Assembly: GCA_016183225.1 (NCBI GenBank)
Contig: JACPEZ010000004.1
Coordinates: 1-49,505 of the forward strand
Source: Candidatus Daviesbacteria bacterium
Lineage (GTDB): Bacteria > Patescibacteriota > Microgenomatia > Daviesbacterales > UBA10151
Direction of reading: 5' to 3'
Length of the DNA: 49,505 bases
The notes under the pieces were generated by a model, which was given only the letters and a program-made list of their open reading frames with translations, was not told the DNA's origin and did no database searches. The first letter of the stretch is position 1; the number at the start of each line of letters is the position of its first letter. Shown piece by piece: positions 5,078 through 18,699 of the stretch. Both the position numbers and the translations under genes were made by a program.

Positions 5078-5121
5078 GGACAAGTAGCTCAGTTGGTTAG
5101 AGCACCTCGTTTACATCGAGG
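5078..5121 (+). pseudogene. 5' half of a split tRNA-Val(UAC): acceptor 5' strand, D arm and anticodon arm only
   Basis: Reads GGACAAG-TA-GCTC-AGTTGGTTA-GAGC-A-CCTCG-TTTACAT-CGAGG, after which no T arm follows. The matching T arm plus CTTGTCC lies at 18675..18699. Confidence 0.75.
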
Positions 5122-5160
5122 AAGAGAAGTGGTATGCTTAGCGCACTGAGCGATTTTTAA

Positions 5161-5234
5161 GGGCACTTAGCTCAGTTGGTAGAGCGTCTCGTTTACACCG
5201 AGAAGGTTCGTAGGTTCGAGACCTACAGTGCCCA
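5161..5234 (+). tRNA. tRNA-Val(UAC), island-borne
   Basis: Reads GGGCACT-TA-GCTC-AGTTGGTA-GAGC-G-TCTCG-TTTACAC-CGAGA-AGGTTC-GTAGG-TTCGAGA-CCTAC-AGTGCCC-A. Complete cloverleaf; the variable loop appears to be 6 nt. Confidence 0.8.
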
Positions 5235-5338
5235 CACAGAGAGTGGAAGTCCTCCAATTCGGTACGGGGGGAGGATACGGCCAGGTAACTGGTGCGATTA
5301 AAGACTTCTGCAAGGTAACTCTCTCTTTATTCAAAACT

Positions 5339-6379
5339 ATGGATAAAGAGACGTTACGCTTACTGATAAAAAAATTTAAAGATCATAGGCAAAGAAGGTG
5401 GAAATCAGCCAAAACCACAGCTAATAATGCTTATTTCTTTAATCTTTTACTGGAATATTTAGATACTCCTTTTAACCGTGAAGCGATCATCAAATTCTTC
5501 AATTACCTGTCAGACAGGGAGCTTTCAGAAAGTACAAGAAGGCAAGCTGAAACTGCTATTCTGGCGTTTGCAGACTGGTTGTTTTATGAAGACATAATTC
5601 CAAAAAAGTGGACAATAAATATTGATAGAACTTATGTTCACAGAAAGCCCAGGATTCTTCCTTCTCAAACAGAAGTCTTGGAGCTGATAAAAAAAGCTAC
5701 AGAACCAGGTAGATTCGACAGCAGATTATCTACCTTTTCAAAAATGGAACACAGAGCTTGTTTGTGTTTTATTGTAGTAGCTTGCGGTGGTAGGAATTAT
5801 GAAACTTCCCAGATTCTAAGGGAACATGTATCTATATCCGGTAATCAGCTAACAATTGTGGAGGGTAAAAATGGGCCTAGAAATGCAGCAATTCCAGCAG
5901 TCCCCTGGCTGGTTGAGGATTTAACAAGAAGGGTAAATGGAGAGCGTACAGCAGATGAACTCAAAACTCTAAGTGACAGAACCCATTACAAAGAAAGTGA
6001 TTTAGAGAGGCTGTTTGTGGTCAATGAAAAAAAATTAGAGGAAACAATGCGGAAAGCTGGAAAATTATTCGGAAGTCCTATGAATGTGCACGATCTAAGA
6101 AGGATTTTTGCACGGGACCTAAAGAAAAATGGTGCTTCTATTGATGATATTAAGGACGCAATGGGTCATAGAGCTATTGAAACGACCATGAAATATCTGG
6201 AATATGACACCTCAACTCAGGCTAAGACCTTAAAGAATTATAGTTCAGAAGCCAGGAAGTACAGGACTCAGGAAGAAAAGGTAAAAGAGCTTATTAGTCA
6301 TGCCTGGGAAATAGGAAGGGTTATTGGTGGTGGGGACTTTAAAAAAGGTATTTTGAATTTAAGGGTAAAAATTAACTAA
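5339..6379 (+). CDS. tyrosine recombinase/phage-type integrase (island integrase 1)
   Basis: C-terminal catalytic pattern HDLRRIFA...GHRAIETTMKYLEY (H-x-x-R, H, Y). The ORF-track start at 5228 overlaps tRNA-Val, so the in-frame ATG at 5339 (MDKETLRLL) is preferred. Confidence 0.8.
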   Translation: MDKETLRLLIKKFKDHRQRRWKSAKTTANNAYFFNLLLEYLDTPFNREAIIKFFNYLSDRELSESTRRQAETAILAFADWLFYEDIIPKKWTINIDRTYVHRKPRILPSQTEVLELIKKATEPGRFDSRLSTFSKMEHRACLCFIVVACGGRNYETSQILREHVSISGNQLTIVEGKNGPRNAAIPAVPWLVEDLTRRVNGERTADELKTLSDRTHYKESDLERLFVVNEKKLEETMRKAGKLFGSPMNVHDLRRIFARDLKKNGASIDDIKDAMGHRAIETTMKYLEYDTSTQAKTLKNYSSEARKYRTQEEKVKELISHAWEIGRVIGGGDFKKGILNLRVKIN

Positions 6380-6479
6380 AATATTTAAGCTCATCCCTCA
6401 TCACGCCCCTTTATAGTTTCAGTCCAGGTATGTGGATCAGTAGCACAGATTGATCCGTCACAAGCTTGATAATCATGCT

Positions 6480-6785
6480 TCATTCCCAGAACGGCCTACT
6501 TTTTGTTTCCCTGAACATTTCTACAACTTCAGAGGTCAGTACAGAGTCAAAGAGTAAAACAGTTTCAGCTTCTACCCTGGAAACACCTAAATCTTCCAGA
6601 AGCTTAATTGGCATTTCCTTAAACTCAATTAAAAAATTATAGTGTTCTTTGTTATCTTTTAGTAAAATCCTTAACTGTTTCAGTTCTGTGAAATATTGGG
6701 CAATTTTGCAAAGCCGGATATTTTCTTTTGTATCCCTTGGTAGTTTAGTCATTGAGCCAGTCGGCATTTTTAAGCACCTCCTCAT
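6480..6785 (-). CDS. hypothetical protein (101 aa)
   Basis: ORF track only. Overlaps the 3' end of ORF 6745..8598 by 41 nt on the same strand, so the true start may be internal. Confidence 0.35.
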   Translation of the reverse strand: MRRCLKMPTGSMTKLPRDTKENIRLCKIAQYFTELKQLRILLKDNKEHYNFLIEFKEMPIKLLEDLGVSRVEAETVLLFDSVLTSEVVEMFRETKSRPFWE

Positions 6786-8598
6786 AATTTGGGATCTCTG
6801 GTTTAACTGTTTCGTCCAAAATAGGGTTTTCTACTGCCATTGTCGCCATTGTTGCCACTCCGTGCCTAGGATTAGTGGCAGTAACATCATTTTCAGTGGC
6901 AGTAATGGCAACAGGAGAATCTTTATCGCCATTAGATTTTGAATTCAGAGTGGTGGTAGTGGCAGTAGTGGCGATAATTTTCTTCTGTTGGACAGTTTTA
7001 GTAAGTTTGATTAAGGTACCTGCGCTGCTTTCTGATCTTGTTGCAGTAATACCTATGGAAATAAGATTAGGTCTTACTTGCATAATTTTTCTCCAAAGAT
7101 GATTTACTGCCTTAGGAAAACCGTCTTCCCCGCCTACTTGCTGTTTTGAATTTTCGACAATCGTTTTTAATTCCCCGTATAGCTCCGAAGCCAAACTTTC
7201 CCATTCCTCTTTATTAGACATGAATTGAATTATTGCGCTGGCTGTAACGCTTGCCTCAAGAGCAGTTTCATTTTGTCTTTTAGTATTCTTATCAAATGCT
7301 GCTAAAAAAGAATTTTGAGTGAATCCCAGCGCAATTGCTGCTGCGGATGCGTATTTTGCATAATCTGCCATTCGTGGTCGAACTGTAAATTTTAAGGTTG
7401 GTGCAATCTTCAAGATTTTAGATAAAATATCAAACAAAGATCCTAGGATTGCTGGTTTAAGATTGTTAAACTCGATCCAGAGTTCTTCTTCGGCCTGACG
7501 ATTTTCTGGTGGTATTAGATCGTAGGCGAGGATTAGCGACCTTTCTAGTAGGTCCGCTCTTGTTGCTACTAAAGTAATTCCAGAAAGTCCTACTGCTATT
7601 TTCTGTTTAAAAACTATGGCGTCTTCATCTGTAAATAGCTTCCTTTTTGTAGAACCGATTCCGGTAACAAAACGGGAAAAGGCATCAGATAGTTCATCCC
7701 GTAAGTTGGAAAGATTATCTAAATACAAACAATAGTGATGGTGTGCAGCTAGGGCAAGCTCCCGCAGATCACTTATGGGATCAAGCAGGTCTGCGTGACT
7801 TGGATCAATTAGATTTCTTGCAATCCGCAGACTTGTAGATTTTGCGCTTCCCTGATCTCCTGTATTTATCAATGCCACCCTAGGAATGTCAGGGATGCAA
7901 ACTGTTGGTAAATAAGTTAGAAAAAGCAGCTTGTCGGTCTCCGATTTTAGATTGATAAACGGCAGAACATCCTCAAGGTTGCCTCCCCTTATAGGTGTAA
8001 CTTGAGCCATCTGGTGATTAAATCTGCGGAACTTTACAGGAACGTTTGGATAGCCATCTATTTCCCAGCCATTCTGATCTACCCTGACAACCCGAATATC
8101 GTCACCTAAATCATAATAAATAACTCCATTTATCCTAGCTATTCGATTGTAAAGCTCAATGATTTGTCTTTCATGGAATGCCTTACCCTCCAGAGTACCG
8201 ACAACCGTTTGGAAGGTGTCACCACTAAAGCCTTTTTCGTACTCTTCCCAATATTTTCCCGCAAGCCATCTTCTGAAAGTTACACTCCTAATAGGAAAAG
8301 CAGTAACAGCTTTTTCTGGAAAACTAATATGCGGTTCCCCTAATTGATCCAAATACAATTCAGAGCCAGACTCAAGCGTTAGGTTTACCAGTTGTTCAGC
8401 TACTTTATCTCCTTTTGGAAGTTGCTTTTCTTTGGATTCACTTTCTTGTGGGATTAGATCGTTATCTTCCTTAGAATAGTTTTCCATTTGCTCGTTAGGG
8501 GGATTTATCCCTAGGGAAGCAAGGGTTTTGTTTAGCTGTGAGTTTGGATCTTCGAATTCTTTATCTCCTGGAATATATATATTGCTCTCTTTCTGCAT
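6745..8598 (-). CDS. P-loop NTPase, putative replication (primase/helicase-like, SF3-like) protein of the island
   Basis: Walker A-like NTGDQGSAKST and Walker B-like YCLYLDNLS. Large N-terminal domain and a Thr/Ala-rich low-complexity C-terminal linker. Sits beside RHH and XRE regulators. Confidence 0.45.
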   Translation of the reverse strand: MQKESNIYIPGDKEFEDPNSQLNKTLASLGINPPNEQMENYSKEDNDLIPQESESKEKQLPKGDKVAEQLVNLTLESGSELYLDQLGEPHISFPEKAVTAFPIRSVTFRRWLAGKYWEEYEKGFSGDTFQTVVGTLEGKAFHERQIIELYNRIARINGVIYYDLGDDIRVVRVDQNGWEIDGYPNVPVKFRRFNHQMAQVTPIRGGNLEDVLPFINLKSETDKLLFLTYLPTVCIPDIPRVALINTGDQGSAKSTSLRIARNLIDPSHADLLDPISDLRELALAAHHHYCLYLDNLSNLRDELSDAFSRFVTGIGSTKRKLFTDEDAIVFKQKIAVGLSGITLVATRADLLERSLILAYDLIPPENRQAEEELWIEFNNLKPAILGSLFDILSKILKIAPTLKFTVRPRMADYAKYASAAAIALGFTQNSFLAAFDKNTKRQNETALEASVTASAIIQFMSNKEEWESLASELYGELKTIVENSKQQVGGEDGFPKAVNHLWRKIMQVRPNLISIGITATRSESSAGTLIKLTKTVQQKKIIATTATTTTLNSKSNGDKDSPVAITATENDVTATNPRHGVATMATMAVENPILDETVKPEIPNYEEVLKNADWLND

Positions 8599-8881
8599 AT
8601 AAAAACTCCCGTCTCAGGTGGAATCCCAACGGGAGCTTTTATGTTTCCACCTGATTCTTGGCATTAAAAAACGCCCACAACAAAACTCCTTTTTGAAAGA
8701 AATTCTATTGCGGGCGTTTGGGCTTGTTGCCTCTAAATGCCGTTTATAATCTTACAATAACATCTACTCTATGAGCTTGTCAATATGGTATTTTATTCTT
8801 GCTTGTTAGCTTCGGAGTTCATAAGTTTTATAGGACTAACTTATATCATAATACATTATCTTTATCAGTAATCTAAGAAGT

Positions 8882-9238
8882 TTATGGCTCAAGCGGATGG
8901 TAGTTAGATTTCATATCATCCGGTAAACTTTCAAAACAATCGCTACACATCAAAGTTTTCAGCAACTTCCCATCAACAGAAGATTCTACAAAATCAATGC
9001 TATCCTCATTTTTCGGGAGCCTACAAATGTTACAGAGCTTCGCAATTGGTTGCTTTTGTGGTTTAAAACGTATCCCATCAGTGTCATCAGAAGGTTGACT
9101 AAAGAGTTTTTCTCGGATTAATTGACGGATAAATTCAGCCTGGCGATAATCAAATTCTTTACAATAGAGATTTAATTTATTAAACAAACCTTTTGGTAAA
9201 ACAAAAGTAATTCTTGTCTCCTTCACAGTATTAGGCAT
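8882..9238 (-). CDS. ribbon-helix-helix (CopG/Arc-like) protein with C-terminal Cys-rich zinc-ribbon-like region
   Basis: N-terminus RITFVLPKGLFNKLNLYCKEFDYRQAEFIRQLIREKL fits a beta-alpha-alpha RHH pattern. The C-terminus has CNICRLP...CSDCFES. Confidence 0.5.
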   Translation of the reverse strand: MPNTVKETRITFVLPKGLFNKLNLYCKEFDYRQAEFIRQLIREKLFSQPSDDTDGIRFKPQKQPIAKLCNICRLPKNEDSIDFVESSVDGKLLKTLMCSDCFESLPDDMKSNYHPLEP

Positions 9239-9438
9239 AATGTTGGCATTATAACATCAATATACCAGTGATTTTATGAAAATTATCACGCTGTCAGAGT
9301 GATTTTTGGTACTGCTGCGGATCTTTCTCCTCCTTGTTAAATTTGCACTAATTTGATAAAGAACGAGTCATTTTAAAAGGGCTGAACTACTTGCCATTGG
9401 ATATGCTAATTTGGGTAACATTATGGACCTTTCTTCCA

Positions 9439-9663
9439 TTAAAAATTTATCAGATCTTTTACTTTTACCCCCAAAGAAGAAGCAATTCTCTGTAAACTTC
9501 TCAAACTTATTCGGCGCTTGCCAACTTCCAGCAAGCCAACAGTGGTTTGGCTTAAACTGCTTTTAATGGCTACTTCTTCCTGGCTTAAATCCCGCTGCCG
9601 TCTCATTCTTGCAATTCTTTTCCCCAGTGAAATATCCCTTTGAGTAAACTTTGTTTTGTTCAT
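9439..9663 (-). CDS. XRE-family helix-turn-helix transcriptional regulator (cI/Cro-like)
   Basis: LGKRIARMRRQRDLSQEEVAIKSSLSQTTVGLLEVGKRRISLRSLQRIASSLGV is a typical HTH_3 pattern. Divergent from the plus-strand cargo genes. Confidence 0.8.
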   Translation of the reverse strand: MNKTKFTQRDISLGKRIARMRRQRDLSQEEVAIKSSLSQTTVGLLEVGKRRISLRSLQRIASSLGVKVKDLINF

Positions 9664-9695
9664 GACTCAAAGCTAACAGAAAATGCAAGAAAAAC

Positions 9696-9747: not shown

Positions 9748-9767
9748 ATTTCTGATAAGTTCGAGGT

Positions 9768-10091: not shown

Positions 10092-10102
10092 AAAAATCCG
10101 TA

Positions 10103-10546
10103 ATGTTAAATTATGTACATGATAAAAACAGTTTTAATATATTTAATTGGTTGACGACGAAGCGACCTTTTGAAGGCAGAATTAAAAGAAGAAATTTTGT
10201 CCTTCTCTATCTACCATTTACTATATTAGTTATCTTTTTACAAACACTTGCACAACCAGAAATAGCGCAGAATTTATCGGACCAAATTGCTATAATTTTA
10301 CTCATAGTGCTCATAGCCACAGTAGGTTTTGGATTACTGTACATGTTGCCACTATTGGTTAGAAGACTACATGACTTAAATCATTCTGGATGGGCACTTT
10401 TATTGATGTTCGTACCTTTTATAAATTTAGGTCTTATACTGATCTTGTTATTTGTTAGAGGAACAGAGGGAGAAAATAAATATGGTAAGGAACCACCAGA
10501 TAATAGGAGCCCGCTAGACGATCTATTTAATAGGAGGGGCGGGTAA
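10103..10546 (+). CDS. DUF805-family inner membrane protein
   Basis: FEGRIKRRNF near the N-terminus and VRRLHDLNHSGW...LFVRGTEGENKYG are the hallmark DUF805 motifs. Confidence 0.75.
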   Translation: MLNYVHDKNSFNIFNWLTTKRPFEGRIKRRNFVLLYLPFTILVIFLQTLAQPEIAQNLSDQIAIILLIVLIATVGFGLLYMLPLLVRRLHDLNHSGWALLLMFVPFINLGLILILLFVRGTEGENKYGKEPPDNRSPLDDLFNRRGG

Positions 10547-11083
10547 ATGCCCCAAAATGCCAAAATTATCATTTTTACAACATTTTTATCAATCCTCATA
10601 GTTATTTTAGTCACAAGAATTATCAATAAGCAATTTCAAAATGGTGAAGTTGAAGTTACTAGTGAATTAAGTAGTCCATTTTTTGAAGAAGTAAATTTTC
10701 CACAGAATGAAGCAAGATGGGATAAAGTAGAAAAAGAAAATGAGAGTCTTAGAAAAGTATGCGAGGAAAACGGTGCAGTATGGACACAGGGTTATGGGAG
10801 TTTTGAAGGGAAGTGTACTAAAAAGCAAATTGTAGATAAGTGTGAGAAAAGTGGTGGAGTATGGATGCAGGGCCCCTTTGGTGAAGGACCTTTCTGTAAT
10901 AAAAAATACTCAGATGGTGGGAAAAGTTGTACAGACTCAAGTCAATGTTTATCAAAACAGTGTATTATTCGAAAGGAAGAAAGAATGAGTCGCGAAGGAA
11001 AATGTGCTGATTGGCAAGTAAATTATGGCTGTTATGGATTATTAAAAAGAGGTAGAATAACCAATGATGCCTGTAGAGATTAA
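10547..11083 (+). CDS. hypothetical Cys-rich secreted/anchored protein (178 aa)
   Basis: N-terminal TM/signal segment, then many Cys residues with repeated CxxxGGVW-like units. Its start abuts the upstream stop (TAAATG). Confidence 0.5.
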   Translation: MPQNAKIIIFTTFLSILIVILVTRIINKQFQNGEVEVTSELSSPFFEEVNFPQNEARWDKVEKENESLRKVCEENGAVWTQGYGSFEGKCTKKQIVDKCEKSGGVWMQGPFGEGPFCNKKYSDGGKSCTDSSQCLSKQCIIRKEERMSREGKCADWQVNYGCYGLLKRGRITNDACRD

Positions 11084-11179
11084 GTATTCTGTATAATTAA
11101 GTATGAATGGGGGTGAGTTATTATAGACGACCAAACACCAAATTCTGAACCGAAGCAAAGCAATACTGGGAAATGGATA

Positions 11180-11455
11180 GTGGCAATTATTGCAGCAGCA
11201 GTTATTGGAGGTGGTGCAGTAGCACTTATTAATAATGCTAATAAAACATCAACTCAAGTGCCTACTCCATCTCCAACTGTTCAAAGTAGCCCTACTCCGA
11301 GATCACCAAAACCGACTGTTTCGGGAGGAGATAAGGACTGTACAGATTTTGCAACTCACGCGGAGGCTCAAGCATTCTTTGAAGCTGCTGGCCCTGGTGA
11401 TCCGCATAGGCTAGATAGAGACGGGGATGGCATTGCTTGTGAGACTTTGCCATAA
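11180..11455 (+). CDS. membrane-anchored Excalibur calcium-binding domain protein
   Basis: C-terminus CTDFATHAEAQAFFEAAGPGDPHRLDRDGDGIACE matches the Excalibur DxDxDGxxCE motif. GTG start. Confidence 0.7.
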   Translation: MAIIAAAVIGGGAVALINNANKTSTQVPTPSPTVQSSPTPRSPKPTVSGGDKDCTDFATHAEAQAFFEAAGPGDPHRLDRDGDGIACETLP

Positions 11456-11492
11456 ATTTATCCACATGCCCTAGGATATAAGGAGTGGACTG

Positions 11493-11885
11493 ATGAATAA
11501 AATGAACCAAAAAGGTATAGTAGTGTTATTGATTGTATTGGGCTTACTTCTGATCTTTGGTAGCTTCTATTGGTTCGAGCTAAGACCCACCAAGATTAGA
11601 CAAGAGTGTTCCTGGGTAAAGCATACTGATGAGGCTATTCCTGCTAAGCCAGCCATGAGCGAAGAAGAATTAAGGGTGAAAGGTATCATTAAGGATGATT
11701 GTAAGGGATCAGGGTACGTTAGCATATTCAGCGAATCTTTTGAGGAAATATGCGAACGCAATAATAAACAAACAATTGAGGAGTATAAAACAGACAGACC
11801 TGCTGTTCCGGCAAAGGACTGGTATTCTAAGGCTTCGGAAAAGCAATATGATTTCTGTATAAAAGAGAAGGGATTAGTCCGCTAG
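11493..11885 (+). CDS. hypothetical membrane-anchored protein (130 aa)
   Basis: ORF track; N-terminal TM segment; no recognisable domain. Confidence 0.45.
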   Translation: MNKMNQKGIVVLLIVLGLLLIFGSFYWFELRPTKIRQECSWVKHTDEAIPAKPAMSEEELRVKGIIKDDCKGSGYVSIFSESFEEICERNNKQTIEEYKTDRPAVPAKDWYSKASEKQYDFCIKEKGLVR

Positions 11886-11950
11886 TGAAGCAAGTGAAAA
11901 TAAGAACTTTGAGGTTCTCAGAATTTTTAATATAATAACTGTAGATAGAT

Positions 11951-12940
11951 ATGGAAAAATTTAAAAAAATATTAAGATGGGTTCTTGGTATTTTAAGTAC
12001 GGTAGGCGCATTGGTTTATATCTCAACTAGCATTCCTACTTTTATTGTTTGGCTTCTACTTGCAGCTTTACTGATCCCTCCTGGCGAGAGATTAATTATG
12101 AGTAGATTTCCGATAAAACTGCCAACTATTGCTAAAGTTATTGCAGGTATAGCCTTATTTTTAATAGCGGTAATGATTGCTCCTAAAAGCCAGACCGCAG
12201 AACAGATACAGAAGGTTGAACCAAAGTCTCAAGGGCAAGTTAATGTTGCAGCTACTTCATCCCCTACATCAATACCGCAATCCGATCTTTACACTGTTTC
12301 CTCCGTAATTGATGGAGACACTATTCAGGTTGTTATTGATAGTAAAAAAGAAACTATTCGCTTGATTGGTATTGATTCACCCGAAACAGTAGACCCCAGA
12401 AAGCCTGTTCAGTGTTTTGGTAAAGAAGCATCAGCAAAGCTAAAATCATTGATTTCAGGTAAATCAGTCAGACTTGAGGCAGATCAAAGCCAGGATAATA
12501 GGGATAAATACCAAAGGTTCCTTAGATATGTATTTTTAGAAGATGGAACTAATGTTAATAAACTGATGGTTAGTGAAGGATTTGCATACGAATATACCTA
12601 CAATACACCTTACAAATATCAATCTGAATTCAAACAGGCACAAAAAGAAGCAGAAGAGAATAAAAGAGGTCTGTGGGCCGATAATGCCTGCCCTACTAGC
12701 TCCCCACAGCCATCAATACAAACTAGCGGAACAAGTTCCACTACAACTGGTGGTTCCTCGGATACTACAGGGACTTCGGGTGGATCTTTCGATAGTAGTG
12801 GTAAATTCACTTGTGCAGGCAAGACTAAATGTGGTCAGATGGTATCTTGTGAGGAAGCCTACTTCTACCTTAATAGTTGTGGTGTAGCACGCCTAGACGG
12901 AGATAAAGATGGAGTACCGTGCGAAAGTCTGTGTAATTAA
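11951..12940 (+). CDS. membrane-anchored thermonuclease (SNase/micrococcal nuclease family) with C-terminal Excalibur domain
   Basis: VIDGDTIQV...IRLIGIDSPE...QCFGKEA...RFLRYVF...NKLMVSEGFAYEY...KRGLWA is the SNase pattern. A Ser/Thr/Gly linker follows, then LDGDKDGVPCE (Excalibur). Confidence 0.8.
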   Translation: MEKFKKILRWVLGILSTVGALVYISTSIPTFIVWLLLAALLIPPGERLIMSRFPIKLPTIAKVIAGIALFLIAVMIAPKSQTAEQIQKVEPKSQGQVNVAATSSPTSIPQSDLYTVSSVIDGDTIQVVIDSKKETIRLIGIDSPETVDPRKPVQCFGKEASAKLKSLISGKSVRLEADQSQDNRDKYQRFLRYVFLEDGTNVNKLMVSEGFAYEYTYNTPYKYQSEFKQAQKEAEENKRGLWADNACPTSSPQPSIQTSGTSSTTTGGSSDTTGTSGGSFDSSGKFTCAGKTKCGQMVSCEEAYFYLNSCGVARLDGDKDGVPCESLCN

Positions 12941-13544: not shown

Positions 13545-14987
13545 ATGGAGTGGATAGCGCTTTTCCTAATTACAATCTGGATAGGTTCCGCAATTAAAGA
13601 TCATATTGATAAGAAGCCACAGAGAGGGAATTATAATGGAGGTTATTATCCCACACCAAGAACTATGAGTACACCTAAAGCTAAATTAAATATAAAGCAG
13701 GTTGATATATCTGACATAAAGCTTAGTCCGGAACAACAAATGTTATTTGACAAGCTAGAAAATACAACCAGCAATATGTTTATAACTGGTAAAGCTGGAA
13801 CTGGTAAATCTGTTTTACTGCAATATTTCAAACAAAACTCTTCCAAACGTTTAGTTGTTGTAGCACCCACAGGGGTTGCAGCTTTAAATGTGGGGGGTCA
13901 AACCATACATTCACTTTTTAGGATTCCTCCTGCATTTATCACAAATGATAAATTAAGATTAACTCCTAAAACTGCCTTACTGCTTAGAAATTTAGATGCA
14001 GTTGTTATTGATGAAATTTCAATGGTCCGTGTTGATCTGATGAATGCTATAGATTACTTGCTTAAGCAAGCCCGTGGCAGTAATTTGCCATTTGGAGGAG
14101 TTCAAATGGTTATGTTTGGAGATCTTTATCAATTACCACCTGTTGTGAATGATTCTGAGCTCCATAAGTACTTTGCAGATAATCATGGTGGATTTCGTTT
14201 TTTTCATGCTCACGCTTGGGGAAATACACCGCTTGAAATATATGAGTTGTCTAAAATTTTCAGACAAAAGGATGAAATATTCAGAGGCATTCTAAACAGT
14301 ATCCGTGCTGGAAGTGTGACTGACCAATTTTTATCTCAGCTTAATGCTCGTGTTACTGTTGAAGTACCCGAAGAAGGCATAATTACTTTGGTCACAACTA
14401 ACGCTTTAGCCAGTGAAATAAATAATCGGAAACTTGGGCAGCTTGAAGGAGAGTTAAAAGAATATCGAGCAACTATCTATGGAGAATTGGAACAATCAGC
14501 TTTCCCAACCGATGAAATTTTACGTTTAAAAAAGGGTGCTCAAGTAATGCTCATCAAAAATGACAGGGAGAAAAAATGGGTTAATGGTTCCATAGGTTAT
14601 GTTCACTCATTATCTGCTACTGAGGTGAAAGTAGACATTGACGGAATTGTTTATTCTGTACCCAGGGAAACTTGGAGCAAAATACGTTATTACTATAACC
14701 AGGAAAAGAAAAAAGTTGAAGAAGAAGTTGTAAGTTCTTTTACCCAATTTCCTCTGAAATTAGCATGGGCTTTAACTATCCATAAAGCCCAGGGTCAAAC
14801 CTATGGTTCTGTTGCAGTGGATATGGGGGATGGGGCTTTTGCCCATGGTCAAACATATGTAGCCTTAAGCAGATGTAAAAGCCTTGAAGGACTATATCTC
14901 AAAAGAGAAATCCTAAGGGAGGATATTATGGTTGATCCTGCTGTGATTAGTTTCATGAATAAAGCACAAATTTTGGATATAAACTAA
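13545..14987 (+). CDS. PIF1/RecD-family SF1B DNA helicase
   Basis: FITGKAGTGKS (Walker A), VVIDEISMV (Walker B), FGDLYQLPPV, TIHKAQGQTY, YVALSRCKS. The N-terminal 20 aa are hydrophobic, so the true start may be the internal MSTPKAK. Confidence 0.85.
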   Translation: MEWIALFLITIWIGSAIKDHIDKKPQRGNYNGGYYPTPRTMSTPKAKLNIKQVDISDIKLSPEQQMLFDKLENTTSNMFITGKAGTGKSVLLQYFKQNSSKRLVVVAPTGVAALNVGGQTIHSLFRIPPAFITNDKLRLTPKTALLLRNLDAVVIDEISMVRVDLMNAIDYLLKQARGSNLPFGGVQMVMFGDLYQLPPVVNDSELHKYFADNHGGFRFFHAHAWGNTPLEIYELSKIFRQKDEIFRGILNSIRAGSVTDQFLSQLNARVTVEVPEEGIITLVTTNALASEINNRKLGQLEGELKEYRATIYGELEQSAFPTDEILRLKKGAQVMLIKNDREKKWVNGSIGYVHSLSATEVKVDIDGIVYSVPRETWSKIRYYYNQEKKKVEEEVVSSFTQFPLKLAWALTIHKAQGQTYGSVAVDMGDGAFAHGQTYVALSRCKSLEGLYLKREILREDIMVDPAVISFMNKAQILDIN

Positions 14988-15004
14988 TTTTGGATTATCT
15001 TTAA

Positions 15005-15241
15005 TTATTTCCCCTCCTGTTTATGTTTCAGTATAAGTTCAAATGCTGTAACCAGTCTTGTACCCTGATCTTGCGCTTCTTCATCTGTTAATTGTCTACC
15101 ATAAACTTCAAGTGTGATTTTTTTAAATTCCTGAACCTCTTCATTCGCTTTTAATTCTCCTCCATTAGACTTGCATATATAATTGAGCATTATAAAATGT
15201 CTTTTCTCAAAATAATGCTCGGAAAAAATAGCCTCCTGCAA
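15005..15241 (-). CDS. hypothetical protein (78 aa)
   Basis: ORF track only. Its 5' end overlaps the start-less upstream extension of the DUF4145 reading frame on the other strand. Confidence 0.3.
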   Translation of the reverse strand: MQEAIFSEHYFEKRHFIMLNYICKSNGGELKANEEVQEFKKITLEVYGRQLTDEEAQDQGTRLVTAFELILKHKQEGK

Positions 15242-15452
15242 ATGTAAAAATTCAATATTTGCAGGTTGCGGGAGGGCTGGCTTAGCAGGGATACATGGTG
15301 AAGGTAGTGTTGAAAATGGTGATTTAGTAGAATTTTTTCCTCATTCAGTAGTACAGCTTCCATTACCAGAAGGAATACCCGCTGGTATTGAAAATGAATT
15401 TAGGGAAGCAGAAAAAGATGCTTCTATAGAAAGTTTTAGGTCTGGTTCAGCT

Positions 15453-15842
15453 ATGTTAAGGTCTGCACTCGAAAAAACCCTTAAAGCTCATGGTTACACT
15501 ACTGGTAATTTAGAATCCAAAGTTGATAAAGCAGCAGATGACGGGGTAATTACTTTACCATTAAAGAGAAGAGCCCATGAAAATGTAAGAGTTTTAGGTA
15601 ATAATATTTTGCATGATGAGTGGAGAGCAGTTGATGAAGAAGAATTTGAAGCAGCCCATGAGTACACACGGAGAGTTTTAGAATGTTTTTATGATGACCC
15701 AGAAACTGTAAAAGCAATTCTTATAGAAAAGGGTAATACTGTAGAAACGGAGAATGAAGAAGAACCTAAAAAAGAAGAGGTAGAAACGACACCATTGGAT
15801 GATTCACAAGAGCTAGGGAAAATACCCAGTGTAAATTCCTAA
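15453..15842 (+). CDS. DUF4145-domain protein; canonical start only at 15453, possibly 5'-truncated
   Basis: AMLRSALEKTLKAHG...LGNNILHDEW fits DUF4145. The frame is open upstream to 15216 and encodes the expected N-terminal part (PEGIPAGIENEFREAEK), but that stretch has no ATG, GTG or TTG. Confidence 0.6.
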   Translation: MLRSALEKTLKAHGYTTGNLESKVDKAADDGVITLPLKRRAHENVRVLGNNILHDEWRAVDEEEFEAAHEYTRRVLECFYDDPETVKAILIEKGNTVETENEEEPKKEEVETTPLDDSQELGKIPSVNS

Positions 15843-16057
15843 AAATTCCTAAAAATTTTTTTGAGACTTAAAAATTCCCGTAGTACCTATTTTCAAAACG
15901 GGGGTTACCTCATTCATATAACAAAATAAAACCGTCCCTCTTTAGGCCTTCTTTGAAAAAATTGGATTGTATCCTGCTGTAAATTCTTGATTGCTGACCA
16001 ATTGAAGGTGTACATTTTTTTCTACTTCCTGTAATTATACTTATGGGAAGTTCAAGG

Positions 16058-16690
16058 CTATTTTATCTGCTCTTTTTTCTCCTTTTCTTCCTTCTCCTTC
16101 TGCCTTATTTCGTCCAATCTTATTAAGTTCTTTTCACCCCAATAATAAAATTTCCACTCATCAAGACCTAATTTAGCCTTAGTTTTTTCATCGGGTTTTT
16201 TCATAGTTTCCTCTCTCTTAAAGTAATCTGGTGGGATTTCTTGCCAATCTTTTCCTAATAACAATTTTAATTTCTTTTCAATCTCCTTCTTTATTATTGA
16301 GGGTTCTTTCATTCTTTCTCCAGTTTTATCATATGCATCATCACTCCAATCAACATCAAGCATAACTCTTGCAAATTTAAGATCACCAAGAGCCTCAACG
16401 TATCTTTGCCAATCTCTTGCTATTTCCAAGACCTTTTCGGGATTATGAATAAATCTTTGTTTTAATCGAAAATAATTAATTTCCATAGCGTCAAAGGCGT
16501 TTTGGGTATCTATAAAATGGGGGGAATCGAAGTGTACAAGCTCAAATATACTGTTTTTTAAGAACTGAACGCTACCTTCAATACCCTCAACATTACTTGG
16601 TTGTACCAATATCCCTTTCCCAGAATTCCTGCTATAAATCCAATACGCAACTATCGCACCTATGATTAATAGCCAAACTGGTAGATACAT
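16058..16690 (-). CDS. hypothetical membrane-anchored protein with Lys/Glu-rich C-terminus (210 aa)
   Basis: ORF track. N-terminal TM segment. Starts 3 nt after the stop of integrase 2, so it is probably co-transcribed. Confidence 0.5.
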   Translation of the reverse strand: MYLPVWLLIIGAIVAYWIYSRNSGKGILVQPSNVEGIEGSVQFLKNSIFELVHFDSPHFIDTQNAFDAMEINYFRLKQRFIHNPEKVLEIARDWQRYVEALGDLKFARVMLDVDWSDDAYDKTGERMKEPSIIKKEIEKKLKLLLGKDWQEIPPDYFKREETMKKPDEKTKAKLGLDEWKFYYWGEKNLIRLDEIRQKEKEEKEKKEQIK

Positions 16691-16692
16691 AA

Positions 16693-17661
16693 TTAAAAAC
16701 CTACCCCCTTAAAGGCGCTATAATATCTTGGTAAATCAGCCTGCTTTTTGATACTGTCATTATACACCTGCAACATTTCAAGTCCTTTATGCCTGGTATA
16801 TTGAGCCACTTCTAAAAGATCACCTTTATAAGTTCTGATTAAGGTAGTGGTGAAATAGTGTCTGAAGCCATGCGTGCTTTTATCAATACCAAGTTTCCTA
16901 AGGGTACGGGTGACTATTTGTCTAATAGCTCTGGTTGTAAGTCTTTGGTTTAAGTGATTGTTAGACTGACAAGTAAATAGAGGGCCGCTGGACTTTTTAT
17001 TGGCTTTTAGATAATCCCTTAGTGCTTTGATAGTTTCCGGGTGCAGGTCTATTAATTCTTTATCATCCCGGCCCTTACCCTGGACAAAAGCTGTTTTAGA
17101 TACAAGGTCAATTTCTTTAACCTCTAGCCTGACAATCTCAATCTGGCGTAGTCCCTGGAGTGCTAGAAGGCTGAAAATAGCCTTTAAACGGGCGTTTTGA
17201 GGTGTAACAGGTAATTGCTTCAACTGCTCAACTAATTTGTTAATCTCCTCTTGATTAAGTCCGTCCCTTTTATGCTTTTTATCCTGGCTAAATACCTTAA
17301 TATTTTGGGTAATGTCGCTGGGGATGACGCCTTGTCTACTTAATTCTTTGAGGAATATCTTAGCTGTGGCCAGATATTTATTTTTAGTACTAACACTTAG
17401 GTCCGTTCTATTTACTAAGTATCTTTTAAACTCTAAATAGCTGTTGATCCCAATCCCATTTTTTCTAACAAATTCCAGGAATAATCCAATTCTATATTTA
17501 TAGTCTTGTCTGGTGTTTTCTGAAATATCAAGTAAATCAAAAACCCTTTTTGCCCTATCCTGAATACCATCGGCTGATAGGATTTGTGGTTGTGCCGGTA
17601 TTATCAGACGGTTATTTGTATTTATCATGGTGCTTTTATTTGACTTTCGTATTATCAACAA
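16693..17661 (-). CDS. tyrosine recombinase (XerC/XerD-like; island integrase 2)
   Basis: GLRQIEIVRLEV (Arg I region) and HGFRHYFTTTL...TRHKGLEMLQVYND (H-x-x-R, H, Y). The alternative start MINTNNR at 17628 would avoid overlap with the RHH gene. Confidence 0.8.
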   Translation of the reverse strand: MLIIRKSNKSTMINTNNRLIIPAQPQILSADGIQDRAKRVFDLLDISENTRQDYKYRIGLFLEFVRKNGIGINSYLEFKRYLVNRTDLSVSTKNKYLATAKIFLKELSRQGVIPSDITQNIKVFSQDKKHKRDGLNQEEINKLVEQLKQLPVTPQNARLKAIFSLLALQGLRQIEIVRLEVKEIDLVSKTAFVQGKGRDDKELIDLHPETIKALRDYLKANKKSSGPLFTCQSNNHLNQRLTTRAIRQIVTRTLRKLGIDKSTHGFRHYFTTTLIRTYKGDLLEVAQYTRHKGLEMLQVYNDSIKKQADLPRYYSAFKGVGF

Positions 17662-17809
17662 AAGTAACTTTTACAACTACTGGTAAATATTTATCTAGTG
17701 CCTTTTCGACTAATCCTGTTAATGTGGTTTCTTCCTGTAAGGCTTGCCCTTTTGCTTTTTTGACCAGAGCAGGATCGAGGAATAGGGTTATCCGTTGTTT
17801 TTTATTCAT
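17636..17809 (-). CDS. small ribbon-helix-helix protein upstream of integrase 2
   Basis: MNKKQRITLFLDPALVKKAKGQALQEETTLTGLVEKALDKYL is a typical RHH pattern. The ORF track extends it to 17845. Confidence 0.5.
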   Translation of the reverse strand: MNKKQRITLFLDPALVKKAKGQALQEETTLTGLVEKALDKYLPVVVKVTFVDNTKVK

Positions 17810-18000
17810 TATTGATACAGTACAACTACTACAACTAGTTGTCAAGGCTTAAAATAAATGTCTGATAATCCTCCGATAGAAGATTGATCTCTATTAATAC
17901 CTATATCCTCAAGTCTAACTGTCGTGTTAGACGACAGTTTTGAAGTGCTTGGTCTACCACCCTCATGCGGTATCTCGTCTTTTAACATTTCCCCAGAAGA

Positions 18001-18528
18001 TTAGTTGGGGTCAGGAATATACAGTTTAGGTTTTTCATCTTCTTCACCAAACTTTATAAAATCTTTTTTTATTAGTTTTGTTAGTGTTTTCTGTACATCT
18101 TCCCTCAATTCTTTTTCATATTTTGAATCATATCCATTCAAATAGGCATAAAACTTTCTATTAATTGTTTGTCCTAAAATTAAAACTTGACCATCTATCC
18201 AGTTACTTGCTTCTTGTATAAGATCATTAATAATATCATCCTGTTTTTTAAATTCTGGCTCATGTACGGTTAAATGTGCCTTTAATCCCTCAAGTATGCC
18301 TTGCTCTTTATATATTCTAAAGATATACTGATTTGCTGTTTGTGCTGCTTGGATTCTTAACTCATAAAGCTTCAGCTTAAAAGCTTCTTCTCTATCTTCT
18401 CTGTCTCTTTGTCTGCTTAAAATATGGTTGGCAAAAAGAGTCAGTATTGACCCTAAAAAGCCAACTATTACCCCTGGTGCTGTAACTTGGTTGAAAAATT
18501 GAATGACCCCAGATTGTGTAGCTTCCAT
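18001..18528 (-). CDS. hypothetical membrane-anchored protein (175 aa)
   Basis: ORF track; one N-terminal TM segment; last gene before the right island junction. Confidence 0.45.
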   Translation of the reverse strand: MEATQSGVIQFFNQVTAPGVIVGFLGSILTLFANHILSRQRDREDREEAFKLKLYELRIQAAQTANQYIFRIYKEQGILEGLKAHLTVHEPEFKKQDDIINDLIQEASNWIDGQVLILGQTINRKFYAYLNGYDSKYEKELREDVQKTLTKLIKKDFIKFGEEDEKPKLYIPDPN

Positions 18529-18645
18529 TGTGGGAATTATACAGCATGCTTAGAATAACTGTATTATATTTATCCATATTTGTTATATAATACCCGCAGA
18601 ATAAAGAGAGGAGTTGATCTCTGGTCGTTGGAGGATTTGAGCCTG

Positions 18646-18699
18646 GCGAGCATTCCACCTACACTGAAGGGGTCACAGGTTCGAATCCTGTCTTGTCCA
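18646..18699 (+). pseudogene. 3' part of the split tRNA-Val, preceded by a degenerate anticodon-arm-like copy
   Basis: ACAGG-TTCGAAT-CCTGT-CTTGTCC-A at 18675..18699. CTTGTCC is the exact complement of GGACAAG at 5078. The upstream GAGC-A-TTCCA-CCTACAC-TGAAG is imperfect, and no 5' acceptor strand is present locally. Confidence 0.75.

What the first reader, a model, noticed from the sequence alone, without database searches (positions are those of the whole stretch)
5078..18699. tRNA-Val gene split by a ~13.6-kb two-integrase island that carries its own replacement tRNA-Val(UAC)
Positions 5078-5121 encode a perfect tRNA 5' half (GGACAAG acceptor strand, D arm, anticodon arm CCTCG-TTTACAT-CGAGG), after which all tRNA character is lost. 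A T arm plus acceptor 3' strand (ACAGG-TTCGAAT-CCTGT-CTTGTCC-A) lies at 18675-18699, and CTTGTCC is the exact 7/7 complement of GGACAAG. Between the halves are two tyrosine integrases (5339-6379 plus strand, 16693-17661 minus strand), XRE and RHH regulators, a P-loop replication-like gene and cargo genes. Integration into tRNA genes normally regenerates the tRNA from an element-borne 3' copy, but here the gene stays broken. Instead, a complete tRNA-Val(UAC) with a different acceptor stem (GGGCACT) sits 40 nt inside the left junction, directly upstream of integrase 1. A degenerate anticodon-arm-like copy (TTCCA-CCTACAC-TGAAG, 18650-18669) precedes the right-hand T arm and may be attP-derived homology. 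An element that disrupts its target tRNA and complements it with its own isoacceptor would be unusual, especially if the host is a reduced genome.
Basis: partly seen in the sequence, partly recalled or inferred. Interest (0 to 1): 0.75.

Follow-up and report, generated by a model that had tools for sequence, protein, structure and literature searches.

The report
Island splits tRNA-Val, supplies its own
A 13.5-kb mobile element in a tiny-genome (CPR) bacterium has cut the host's tRNA-Val gene in two and carries its own working copy of the same tRNA beside its integrase, a strategy already described in mycobacterial phages as "tRNA-dependent lysogeny" but seen here as a conserved cassette in a new phylum.

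Summary
5078-5121 and ~18664-18699 are two parts of one tRNA-Val(UAC) gene. Neither is called as a tRNA alone, but the in-silico join is. A relative (L003) has the same gene uninterrupted after tRNA-Leu(gag), and another (L001) has the empty site CofD–tRNA-Leu–tRNA-Leu–tRNA-Val–AdoHcyase.

The 13.5-kb insert starts with a cassette: att core, ~40 nt, complete tRNA-Val(UAC) (5161-5234), then tyrosine integrase int1 (5339-6379).

- **Recurrence:** the cassette appears in all nine other independent contexts of this small CPR-only integrase family that show the sequence upstream of int; one carries tRNA-Pro instead. Six more show a broken host 5' half.
- **L007:** the two island ends are joined, i.e. 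attP.
- **L018:** both halves flank a 7.2-kb element with a perfect 10-bp repeat (TTACATCGAA), and removing the element restores the tRNA.

It is not new in kind. It matches tRNA-dependent lysogeny (Guerrero-Bustamante & Hatfull 2024): a short common core, no reconstitution, and a cognate tRNA on the element.

What is new is the host (Patescibacteria, near Daviesbacteria), an unrelated integrase lineage, and the fixed core–tRNA–int layout. Complementation, expression and current mobility are inferred, not shown.

The parts
4990..5072 (+). Host tRNA-Leu(gag). It lies immediately upstream of the split gene, in the same orientation, with a 5-nt spacer CATTT.
   Evidence: ARAGORN and Rfam. Same position in L001 and L003.
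5078..5121 (+). 5' part of the host tRNA-Val(UAC): acceptor 5' strand, D arm and anticodon arm. This is the attL side.
   Evidence: Read directly. 42/44 identical to the intact L003 tRNA-Val. Not called as a tRNA on its own.
5111..5121 (+). attL copy of the core region, TTACATCGAGG (anticodon loop plus 3' stem strand). Strand exchange most likely occurred within or next to TTACA.
   Evidence: 9/10 match to the perfect 10-bp core TTACATCGAA of L018 and to the L007 attP. 7/11 identical to the attR copy.
5110..5138 (+). Conserved motif TTTACA-N17-(TGn)TATGCT spanning the core and the P' arm. It looks like a sigma-70 promoter, with -35 formed by the anticodon loop. It could instead be an integrase-binding site.
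   Evidence: Promoter scan. The same motif with identical spacing is present in L005, L007, L009, L010, L011, L012, L016 and L018, and these are the only 8 hits in 231 kb of loci.
5122..5160 (+). Element P' spacer between the core and the element tRNA. Contains a weak hairpin plus T5 at 5135-5152.
   Evidence: Homologous spacers in L005 and L012.
5161..5234 (+). Element-borne complete tRNA-Val(UAC), acceptor stem GGGCACT/AGTGCCC, discriminator A.
   Evidence: Rfam 68.3 bits and ARAGORN. In an alignment with 5 other element tRNAs and 2 host tRNAs, 100% of cells are paired and 16/21 pairs show compensatory changes.
5235..5338 (+). Conserved spacer between tRNA and int, probably the int 5' leader. 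An outer stem AGAGAG/CTCTCT is predicted.
   Evidence: Alignments A6 and A7. The structural support is weak.
5339..6379 (+). int1, a tyrosine integrase from a small CPR-restricted family. It is the recombinase associated with the core–tRNA-Val cassette.
   Evidence: PF00589. 29 homologs with E<1e-10 among 5.8e9 proteins. Contexts.
6480..8598 (-). A 101-aa ORF (shared with the L005 element) and a 617-aa protein of unknown function (homolog in the int2-type element L013).
   Evidence: tblastx. No Pfam or PHROG hit.
9439..9663 (-). XRE-type HTH regulator.
   Evidence: PF01381 E=9e-11. PHROG repressor and regulator families.
10103..12940 (+). Cargo genes: DUF805 membrane protein, an Excalibur-domain protein, and a SNase-Excalibur nuclease.
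   Evidence: Pfam and PHROGs. The Excalibur gene is shared with the L008 element.
13545..14987 (+). Pif1/Dda-like P-loop helicase.
   Evidence: PF05970 E=2e-31. phrog_325 E=1e-77.
15261..15842 (+). DUF4145 gene, 81% aa identical to the one in the L008 element. No start codon is found before 15453, so it may be 5'-truncated.
16693..17661 (-). int2, a second tyrosine integrase from a different and very large CPR family. It is not needed for the split-and-replace architecture.
   Evidence: PF00589 E=2e-23. More than 1897 homologs. Only marginal similarity to int1. Absent from the complete element in L018.
17636..17845 (-). Arc/RHH-like small ORF upstream of int2.
   Evidence: phrog_3180 E=5e-5.
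18637..18662 (+). Right-end P arm of the element, TGAGCCTGGCGAGCATTCCACCTACA.
   Evidence: 22/26 match to L007 nt 83-108, just upstream of its core. Score 32 against shuffles of 15.7±2.4, 0/2000 reaching it. It is the best-scoring place in the whole window. GAGGATTTGA further upstream is also shared with the L018 attR.
18659..18669 (+). attR copy of the core region, CTACACTGAAG. After TACA it resembles the host-type sequence (L003 ACACTGAGG) more than the attP type.
18670..18699 (+). 3' part of the host tRNA-Val: variable loop GGGTC, T arm, acceptor 3' strand CTTGTCC and discriminator A. The AdoHcyase gene (18704-19930, minus strand) follows directly.
   Evidence: 29/29 identical to L003 from GGTC to the 3' end. 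Same downstream flank CATTTTATGTTCC as in L001.

Best explanation
An integrative element of about 13.5 kb has inserted into the anticodon-loop region of the host's tRNA-Val(UAC) gene. The host is a Patescibacteria (CPR) bacterium close to Ca. Daviesbacteria.

**Integration (inferred from anatomy).**
- int1, a tyrosine integrase, recombines a short attP core with the host gene.
- The core mimics only the anticodon loop and the first bases of the 3' stem strand (TTACAYCGAA-like, at most about 10 bp).
- attP does not carry the rest of the tRNA, so neither junction regenerates a functional gene.
- attL keeps the 5' part and attR keeps the T arm and the 3' acceptor strand.

**Replacement.**
- The element carries a complete tRNA-Val(UAC) of its own, with a different acceptor stem. 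It lies 2-44 nt beyond the conserved motif that starts in the core (about 40 nt beyond the core in the window) and 150-260 nt upstream of int1.
- This copy is inferred to replace the lost isoacceptor. That would matter in a lineage known for minimal tRNA sets.
- After integration, the element tRNA lies co-oriented directly behind the host tRNA-Leu genes.
- It can therefore be made by read-through from the host tRNA operon, from the conserved TTTACA-N17-TGnTAnnnT motif spanning the core, or from both. This step is inferred.

**Status of the window copy.**
- It looks old or composite.
- Its two core copies match at only 7/11 positions.
- One cargo gene appears truncated.
- It contains a second integrase from an unrelated mobile-element family.

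**What is shown and what is inferred.** The split, the empty site, the cassette's conservation, the attP form and the perfect repeat in L018 are shown. Catalysis by int1, complementation, the expression route and present mobility are inferred.
For: **The split.**
- No tRNA is called for either half. The join is called tRNA-Val(tac).
- The intact ortholog is in L003. The empty site with the same flanks is in L001.

**The cassette is conserved.** A tRNA-Val(tac) lies directly upstream of int1 homologs (49-84% identity) in:
- L005/L006
- L007
- L008
- L009/L010 and L011
- L012
- L016 and L018

**Broken host halves elsewhere.** A broken host tRNA-Val 5' half follows a host tRNA-Leu in L005, L009, L011 and L016. 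A broken 5' half is also present in L012 (cut by the contig end) and L018, where the gene upstream was not identified.

**attP.** In L007 the window's right-end sequence abuts the core, tRNA and int: 22/26 match, 0/2000 shuffles reaching the score.

**A complete second case.** In L018 the core TTACATCGAA occurs at 9668-9677 and 16910-16919. The 3' half AGCGCCC complements GGGCGCT. In-silico excision gives a perfect 73-nt tRNA-Val. That element has one integrase only.

**The element tRNAs look functional.** 100% of cells are paired and 16/21 pairs show compensatory changes.

**Precedent.** The same logic was proven experimentally in mycobacteriophages: 8-17 bp cores, no reconstitution, and a cognate phage tRNA required for viable integrants (PMC10865867).
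Against: - The window cannot show that no other tRNA-Val(UAC) exists in this genome, so the need for complementation is unproven.
- The window's own core repeats are imperfect (7/11), so the exact crossover point is ambiguous. The perfect anticodon stem at attL could mean exchange happened 3' of the stem rather than in the loop.
- The promoter reading has a problem. In L007, L011 and L016 the -10-like hexamer ends only 2-5 nt before the tRNA, so a start there would truncate the tRNA. The motif may be a recombinase-binding site instead.
- A weak hairpin plus T5 (5135-5152) could hinder read-through.
- No excisionase was identified next to int1.
- There are no reads, so excision or circular forms of this particular copy are untested.
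Confidence: 0.85

Rival explanations
1. The island tRNA-Val is cargo with another role, such as countering anticodon nucleases that deplete tRNA or adjusting codon usage. The host tolerates loss of the split gene because it has another tRNA-Val able to read GUA/GUG.
For: The Discussion of PMC10865867 raises anti-defence roles for phage tRNAs. The rest of the genome is not visible. L001 shows a tRNA-Val(gac) about 5 kb away.
Against: The tRNA carried matches the isotype and anticodon of the gene that is destroyed in all nine Val-carrying contexts. It always lies directly next to the core. That linkage is what complementation predicts, not general cargo. tRNA-Val(GAC) cannot normally read GUA/GUG. 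This is established wobble knowledge and was not tested here.
Confidence: 0.08
2. Assembly artefact: the metagenome assembler joined unrelated contigs at tRNA-like repeats, creating an apparent split.
For: The sequence is a metagenome-type assembly, and tRNA genes are repeats. One related contig (L007) starts with a Nextera adapter.
Against: The same junction architecture recurs in independent assemblies from NCBI, ENA, JGI and Logan. This includes contigs of 336-385 kb. L018 has both ends and perfect 10-bp repeats. The window flanks are syntenic with L001 on both sides.
Confidence: 0.02
3. Ordinary tRNA-targeting island that regenerates its target: the gene at 5161-5234 is the repaired host tRNA, and the other pieces are leftover att duplicates.
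For: The layout of tRNA, integrase, and a distant 3' tRNA fragment superficially resembles the classical arrangement.
Against: The 3' fragment (…CTTGTCC) does not match the 3' end of the intact tRNA (…AGTGCCC) but pairs 7/7 with the orphan 5' half. The intact tRNA is a whole gene with its own 5' end, about 40 nt beyond the orphan half. In L007 the complete tRNA is present in the joined-ends form with no host half.
Confidence: 0.02
4. Split tRNA gene whose halves are expressed separately and joined in trans, as in Nanoarchaeum. The trailer GTGGTATGCT (5129-5138) would pair with the leader AGCATTCCAC (18649-18658).
For: The two segments are 9/10 complementary. My rough estimate for chance is about p=0.03 over the possible registers.
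Against: The host is a bacterium: a glmS ribozyme is present and the proteins are CPR-like. No archaeal splicing endonuclease context exists. Both segments are element DNA (the P and P' arms), so they are better read as inverted recombinase-binding sites. An intact cognate tRNA sits beside the half. The 3' half carries substitutions that weaken the anticodon stem.
Confidence: 0.01

Closest known systems
tRNA-dependent lysogeny of actinobacteriophages: Fionnbharth/K4, Cluster L, Cain/K6, Gaia/X and Gordonia CQ2/DL phages (Guerrero-Bustamante & Hatfull, mBio 2024, PMC10865867)
   Same: - Tyrosine integrase.
- attB inside a host tRNA gene.
- Common core of only about 8-17 bp (here up to 10 bp).
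- No functional tRNA rebuilt at attL or attR.
- The element encodes a tRNA with the same isotype and anticodon as the one destroyed.
- The host lineage has a minimal tRNA repertoire.
   Different: - Host phylum is Patescibacteria rather than Actinobacteria.
- The target is tRNA-Val(UAC).
- int1 is under 30% identical to any integrase in 50,697 phage records, and only over the catalytic domain.
- No phage structural genes were recognised in the island.
- The replacement tRNA is fixed in a core–tRNA–int cassette, co-oriented with the broken gene and the host tRNA operon. In Fionnbharth the tRNA lies elsewhere, overlaps gene 37 on the opposite strand and has its own promoter.
- No experimental proof exists here.
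Lj965 prophage of Lactobacillus johnsonii, and Sinorhizobium meliloti prophages similar to Mesorhizobium phage Lo5R7ANS. Both are cited as non-reconstituting integrations with a cognate prophage tRNA (PMC10865867 Discussion; PMC12429752).
   Same: Same logic outside Actinobacteria: a disrupted tRNA and a cognate tRNA on the prophage.
   Different: These are prophages of Firmicutes and Alphaproteobacteria. I did not inspect their sequences, so the comparison rests on what those papers state.
Classical tRNA-targeting integrative elements that integrate at the anticodon loop, such as HP1-type or P4-type. This comparison is from my own knowledge of Williams 2002 (Nucleic Acids Res) and was not re-read here.
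   Same: A tyrosine integrase is encoded next to attP. Exchange occurs in or near the anticodon loop, with the symmetrical stem as the likely binding site.
   Different: Classical elements carry the whole 3' part of the tRNA in attP and regenerate the gene at attL. Here attP homology ends after the anticodon arm, and a separate whole tRNA gene is supplied.

Membership tests
tRNA-dependent lysogeny / non-reconstituting tRNA integration (PMC10865867) | The element encodes a tyrosine-family integrase next to attP. | tested here: met
   int1 matches PF00589 at E=2e-12 and phrog_1 integrase at E=7e-21. The joined-ends contig L007 places the core about 200 nt upstream of int.
tRNA-dependent lysogeny / non-reconstituting tRNA integration (PMC10865867) | attB overlaps a host tRNA gene. 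| tested here: met
   The host tRNA-Val(UAC) is split. The intact ortholog is in L003 and the empty site is in L001.
tRNA-dependent lysogeny / non-reconstituting tRNA integration (PMC10865867) | [quoted passage not shown] | tested here: met
   L018 has a perfect 10-bp repeat, TTACATCGAA. In the window the repeat is 7/11 over the same region. Neither junction is called as a tRNA.
tRNA-dependent lysogeny / non-reconstituting tRNA integration (PMC10865867) | [quoted passage not shown] | tested here: met
   tRNA-Val(tac) at 5161-5234. The same holds in nine related contexts. The cloverleaf is kept through compensatory changes.
tRNA-dependent lysogeny / non-reconstituting tRNA integration (PMC10865867) | The disrupted host tRNA is the only gene of that isoacceptor, so the element tRNA is required for viability of integrants. 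| not testable with these tools
   Only 49.5 kb of the genome is available, and no other tRNA-Val(tac) occurs in it. This needs a whole-genome tRNA scan and genetics.
tRNA-dependent lysogeny / non-reconstituting tRNA integration (PMC10865867) | The element is a temperate phage, i.e. this is lysogeny in the strict sense. | tested here: inconclusive
   No capsid, portal, terminase or tail families were found by Pfam or PHROGs; the only such match was one weak head-tail connector hit below cutoff. No int1 relatives occur in IMG/VR. CPR phage proteins are poorly represented in these libraries. Relatives carry D5-primase or DnaB-like replication genes.
Classical reconstituting tRNA-integrating elements | attP carries the tRNA segment from the crossover to the 3' end, and the tRNA is regenerated at attL. 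| tested here: not met
   attL lacks any T arm or 3' acceptor strand. The L007 attP homology stops after the anticodon arm.
Split tRNA genes joined in trans (Nanoarchaeum type) | Halves with their own expression signals, complementary leader and trailer forming a splicing substrate, in an archaeon with a splicing endonuclease. | tested here: not met
   The host is bacterial. The complementary segments are the element's arms. The halves are separated by a mobile element that is absent from relatives.

The most novel reading that the evidence does not exclude
The core–tRNA–integrase unit may be a portable, self-sufficient integration module.

- **Mixed backbones.** It moves between unrelated CPR element backbones: D5-primase, DnaB-like, Pif1-helicase and int2-type.
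- **Retargeting.** It may be retargeted by swapping the tRNA. L017 has tRNA-Pro(UGG) in the cassette position, with a homologous tRNA-to-int leader.
- **Coupled expression.** It may use the target's own anticodon loop as the -35 of a hybrid promoter, or the host tRNA operon's read-through. The replacement tRNA would then be expressed as a direct consequence of integration.
- **Long-term effect.** Once such elements decay in place, as the window copy appears to be doing, the element tRNA becomes the resident gene. That would drive serial replacement of tRNA genes in minimal CPR genomes.
Probability: 0.25. Interest if true: 0.65.

Novelty: new member of a known kind. Interest (0 to 1): 0.45.

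Why it matters
It extends tRNA-dependent integration to Patescibacteria. Until now it had been shown experimentally only in actinobacteriophages, with cases noted in a Lactobacillus and in rhizobial prophages. CPR genomes are about 1 Mb with near-minimal tRNA sets, so destroying a tRNA gene should be lethal unless it is compensated.

The compact core–tRNA–int cassette is under 1.3 kb and is conserved across integrases down to 49% identity. It is a ready-made candidate for an integration vector in a group with almost no genetic tools. The mycobacterial work showed that such vectors must carry the cognate tRNA.

It also has a practical consequence for annotation. Orphan tRNA halves next to a complete cognate tRNA and an integrase should be read as this kind of junction, and the tRNA counted in such genomes may be element-borne.

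Tried and rejected
- **Genome-contig scans.** Both scans found nothing. One used the exact 44-nt 5' half. The other used an intact tRNA anchored on the GGACAAG/CTTGTCC acceptor stem. The species representatives do not include this sequence.
- **Exact-protein look-up of the window's AdoHcyase.** Not on record. I used homologs instead.
- **P-arm pattern in viral contigs.** No hits. int1 relatives in viral contigs: none.
- **3' halves in L005, L009 and L011.** I searched for the expected acceptor 3' strands and found none within the 10-kb flanks. The pattern was also mis-specified by one base. Those elements extend beyond the fetched DNA.
- **617-aa protein.** I tested whether it is a diverged D5 primase like the one in L005. 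There is no similarity.
- **int1 and int2 as paralogs.** Only a marginal N-terminal match.
- **Trans-spliced split tRNA.** Considered and rejected (see rivals).
- **tRNA turnover.** I considered whether the differing acceptor stems among close relatives prove tRNA turnover by these elements. I rejected this as evidence, because the neighbouring tRNA-Leu(gag) also differs strongly between the same genomes.
- **Exact strand-exchange point in the window.** It could not be fixed. The loop crossover is favoured, because attL right of TACA looks like attP (ATCGA) and attR right of TACA looks like the host (ACTGA). The perfect stem at attL leaves the alternative open.

Full report
**1. The observation**

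ARAGORN and Rfam find ten complete tRNAs in the window; Rfam also finds a partial one at the window's end. These include tRNA-Leu(gag) at 4990-5072 and tRNA-Val(tac) at 5161-5234 (68.3 bits, the best tRNA score in the window). Neither tool calls anything at 5078-5121 or near 18699.

Read directly, 5078-5121 is GGACAAG-TA-GCTC-AGTTGGTTA-GAGC-A-CCTCG-TTTACAT-CGAGG. It is followed by non-tRNA sequence. 18670-18699 is GGGTC-ACAGG-TTCGAAT-CCTGT-CTTGTCC-A. The two acceptor strands pair 7/7. ARAGORN calls a tRNA-Val(tac) when the parts are joined in silico.

**2. One gene, interrupted**

The host is a CPR/Patescibacteria bacterium.
- A glmS ribozyme is present.
- The flanking AdoHcyase has its named relatives in Ca. 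Daviesbacteria at 71-75% identity. The closest unnamed relatives are 88-91% identical.

L001 (GCA_964625535.1, AdoHcyase 91%) has the uninterrupted arrangement CofD / tRNA-Leu(cag) / tRNA-Leu(gag) / tRNA-Val(tac) / AdoHcyase. It has the same CATTT spacer before the tRNA-Val and the same CATTTTATGTTCC after it.

L003 (JGI 3300009296, AdoHcyase 88%) has an intact tRNA-Val(tac) at the same place after tRNA-Leu(gag). Its sequence is GGACAAGTAGCTCAGTTGGTTAGAGCGCCTCATTTACACTGAGGAGGTCACAGGTTCGAATCCTGTCTTGTCCA. It is 42/44 identical to the window's 5' part and 29/29 identical to its 3' part.

The window therefore carries an insertion of about 13.5 kb. The distance between core copies is 13,548 bp (5112 to 18660).

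**3. What the insert is**

| Coordinates | Strand | Feature |
|---|---|---|
| 5161-5234 | + | complete tRNA-Val(UAC) |
| 5339-6379 | + | int1, tyrosine integrase |
| 6480-6785 | − | 101-aa ORF |
| 6745-8598 | − | 617-aa protein, unknown function |
| 9439-9663 | − | XRE regulator |
| 10103-10546 | + | DUF805 membrane protein |
| 11180-11455 | + | Excalibur-domain protein |
| 11951-12940 | + | SNase-Excalibur nuclease |
| 13545-14987 | + | Pif1/Dda-like helicase |
| 15261-15842 | + | DUF4145 gene, apparently 5'-truncated |
| 16693-17661 | − | int2, second tyrosine integrase |
| 17636-17845 | − | Arc-like ORF |
| 18001-18528 | − | 175-aa ORF |

No clear phage structural family was detected; the only such match was a weak head-tail connector hit, below the Pfam cutoff, on the 175-aa ORF. 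GC content is 0.34-0.40 in the island against 0.40-0.45 in the flanks.

**4. The tRNA belongs to the element, and the architecture is conserved**

int1 has only 29 homologs at E<1e-10 among 5.8 billion proteins. The few that carry a source name are named as Patescibacteria. I examined the available contexts.

| Locus | Source | int identity | What is upstream of int |
|---|---|---|---|
| L005/L006 | Daviesbacteria MAGs | 75% | host tRNA-Leu(gag), 5' half of a tRNA-Val, spacer, complete tRNA-Val(tac) |
| L009/L010 | Logan | 52% | same, after tRNA-Leu(aag) |
| L011 | ENA | 56% | same, after tRNA-Leu(aag) |
| L016 | JGI | 57% | same, after tRNA-Leu(aag) |
| L012 | Logan | 71% | same; the contig starts inside the 5' half |
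| L008 | Logan | 75% | contig starts inside the element tRNA-Val |
| L007 | Logan | 83% | no host half; see below |
| L018 | JGI, 385-kb contig | 49% | both junctions present; see below |

L007 has no host half. Sequence homologous to the window's right end abuts the core, the tRNA-Val and int. TGAACCTGGCGAGCACTCTACTTACA aligns with window 18637-18662 at 22/26. The score is 32 against shuffles of 15.7±2.4, with 0/2000 reaching it. This is the best-scoring place in the whole window. L007 is therefore the joined-ends (attP) form.

L018 has both junctions.
- The 5' half starts at 9637.
- The core TTACATCGAA lies at 9668-9677 and again at 16910-16919.
- The 3' half ends at 16950, with AGCGCCC complementary to GGGCGCT.
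- Deleting the 7.24-kb element in silico gives a perfect 73-nt tRNA-Val(tac).
- L018 has int1 only, so int2 is not part of the mechanism.

Six element tRNAs aligned with two host tRNAs keep every one of 168 base-pair cells. 16 of 21 pairs have compensatory changes, and 0/500 shuffles reach the observed values. The element copies are under selection as tRNAs.

**5. att sites**

The attP of L007 and L018 mimics only the D-stem 3' strand and the anticodon arm. An example is GAGCAC-TCTAC-TTACAT-CGAAA-AGG. The homology then diverges.

In the window, attL right of TACA reads TCGAGGAAGAGAAGTGG. That resembles the attP arms: L007 TCGAAAAGGATAAGTGT and L012 CTCTCGAAGAGATGTGG. attR right of TACA reads CTGAAGGGGTC, which resembles the host type (L003 CTGAGGAGGTC).

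Strand exchange therefore most likely occurred in or next to the anticodon loop. One or two later substitutions would then have accumulated in the dead 3' half. The alternative is exchange just 3' of the stem, which would explain the perfect CCTCG/CGAGG stem at attL. It cannot be excluded, because this element's own attP is unknown. Either way the shared core is at most about 10 bp, and nothing is reconstituted.

**6. Expression (inferred)**

In every integrated case the cassette is co-oriented with the host's broken tRNA-Val, and in five of them it lies a few nucleotides behind a host tRNA-Leu gene. Read-through from the host tRNA operon followed by normal end-processing could therefore deliver the replacement tRNA.

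A conserved motif, [T/C]TTACA-N17-(TGn)TAnnnT, spans the core and the P' arm.
- The promoter scan flags it in the window at 5110-5138. One site was found against 0.3 expected.
- It occurs with identical spacing in eight related loci. Those eight are the only matches in 231 kb of fetched loci.
- It may be a hybrid promoter whose -35 is the anticodon loop.
- In three elements the -10-like hexamer ends only 2-5 nt before the tRNA, which fits a recombinase-binding site better.

I leave both readings open.

**7. Comparison with what is known**

The literature search found the phenomenon already described and proven. This is tRNA-dependent lysogeny (Guerrero-Bustamante & Hatfull, mBio 2024, PMC10865867).

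Mycobacteriophage Fionnbharth and others integrate into an essential single-copy tRNA gene through an 8-17 bp core. They do not rebuild the gene, and they carry a cognate tRNA that is required for viable integrants. That paper also cites Lj965 of Lactobacillus johnsonii. A later paper reports the same for some Sinorhizobium meliloti prophages (PMC12429752).

All four sequence-level defining features are met here. The requirement for viability and the single-copy status of the host gene cannot be tested. The phage nature of the element is inconclusive.

Differences from the known cases:
- The host phylum is different.
- The target is tRNA-Val(UAC).
- The integrase lineage is unrelated: under 30% identity to any integrase in 50,697 phage records, and none in IMG/VR.
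- The core–tRNA–int order is fixed. In Fionnbharth the tRNA sits elsewhere with its own promoter.

**8. The second integrase and the state of this copy**

int2 belongs to a very large CPR family: more than 1897 proteins at E≤1e-20, many of them at least 70% identical. In L012, L013 and L015 it forms a module with small ORFs and an HTH_17 protein.

L013, an int2-type element, also carries a homolog of the window's 617-aa protein. L012 has int1 and an int2 homolog 1 kb apart.

The int1 cassette is found on quite different backbones: a D5 primase in L005, a DnaB-like gene in L007, and large unknown proteins in L008 and L011. The window island is therefore best seen as a mosaic of the int1 cassette with parts of an int2-type element. 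The imperfect core repeats and the truncated DUF4145 gene suggest it may be decaying in place.

**9. Verdict**

The case is an independent, conserved instance of a strategy that is already published, so I rate it a new member of a known kind and of moderate interest.

Confidence in the structural account is high. Complementation, the expression route and present mobility remain inferences.

Noticed in passing
window 4802-4988: tRNA-Leu(cag) lacks its first ~17 nt. Its remaining 71 nt (4918-4988) are 100% identical to L003. It is fused at 4917/4918 to the interior of the CofD/YvcK-like gene, which lacks about 19 N-terminal codons. This amounts to a ~124-nt deletion relative to L003. Neither ARAGORN nor Rfam calls a tRNA there. 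It is either a real deletion that kills a second tRNA or an assembly problem.
   Followed up: partly
window 4990-5073 versus 4918-4984: The window's tRNA-Leu(gag) is 81% identical to its own truncated tRNA-Leu(cag) (repeat D1). It differs strongly from the tRNA-Leu(gag) of L001 and L003, although the neighbouring Leu(cag) and Val sequences are nearly identical to L003. This may reflect tRNA duplication with an anticodon change, or a mosaic history.
   Followed up: no
L017:2299-3511: An int1 homolog (53% identity) has tRNA-Pro(tgg) in the cassette position instead of tRNA-Val. The tRNA-to-int leader is homologous to that of L011. No broken tRNA-Pro half or core motif was recognised upstream. 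This may be a retargeted cassette.
   Followed up: partly
window 5235-5338; L007:210-308; L011:9897-10000; L017:2373-2476: The leader between the element tRNA and int is conserved in a subset of elements. An outer stem AGAGAG/CTCTCT is predicted just upstream of the int start. Covariation support is weak: 4 of 16 pairs with compensatory changes, from four sequences.
   Followed up: partly
L002:2192-2260; L003:7852-8891; L004:9412-10222: Other rearrangements occur at the same tRNA-Val/AdoHcyase junction in close relatives. L002 keeps only a 3' fragment (GAGGGTTCAAATCCCTCAGTGCCCA) next to AdoHcyase, followed by unrelated genes. L003 and L004 have about 1 kb (a 263-aa ORF) inserted between tRNA-Val and AdoHcyase. 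This tRNA cluster is an integration hotspot.
   Followed up: partly
L005:177-1072: A 31-nt copy of the 3' end of tRNA-Leu(cag) lies at 1042-1072, after a 241-aa ORF that follows the intact tRNA-Leu(cag). This looks like the att scar of a different, classical tRNA-integrating element.
   Followed up: no
window 16693-17661; L012:2342-3265; L013:10001-11607: int2 belongs to a very large, highly conserved CPR integrase family (more than 1897 proteins). It is usually followed by two small ORFs and an HTH_17 (excisionase-like) gene. Its target site is unknown, and there are no tRNAs in L013 or L015.
   Followed up: partly
window 5161-5234; L012:74-149: These element tRNA-Val genes have 6-7-nt variable loops (AGGTTC, AGGTTTC) rather than the usual 5 nt. 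They still score well as tRNAs.
   Followed up: no
window 20918-21061: A glmS ribozyme (47.7 bits) lies upstream of the GlmS-like ORF at 21332-23230. It is ordinary, but it confirms a bacterial host.
   Followed up: no
L007:1-21: The Logan contig begins with a Nextera adapter (GGAGATGTGTATAAGAGACAG). Its left end is therefore a read-end artefact and says nothing about circularity.
   Followed up: no
L012:3266-4249: A gene-free stretch of about 1 kb with GC-rich, structured-looking segments lies between the int2 homolog and an OLD-family nuclease gene. It was not analysed.
   Followed up: no
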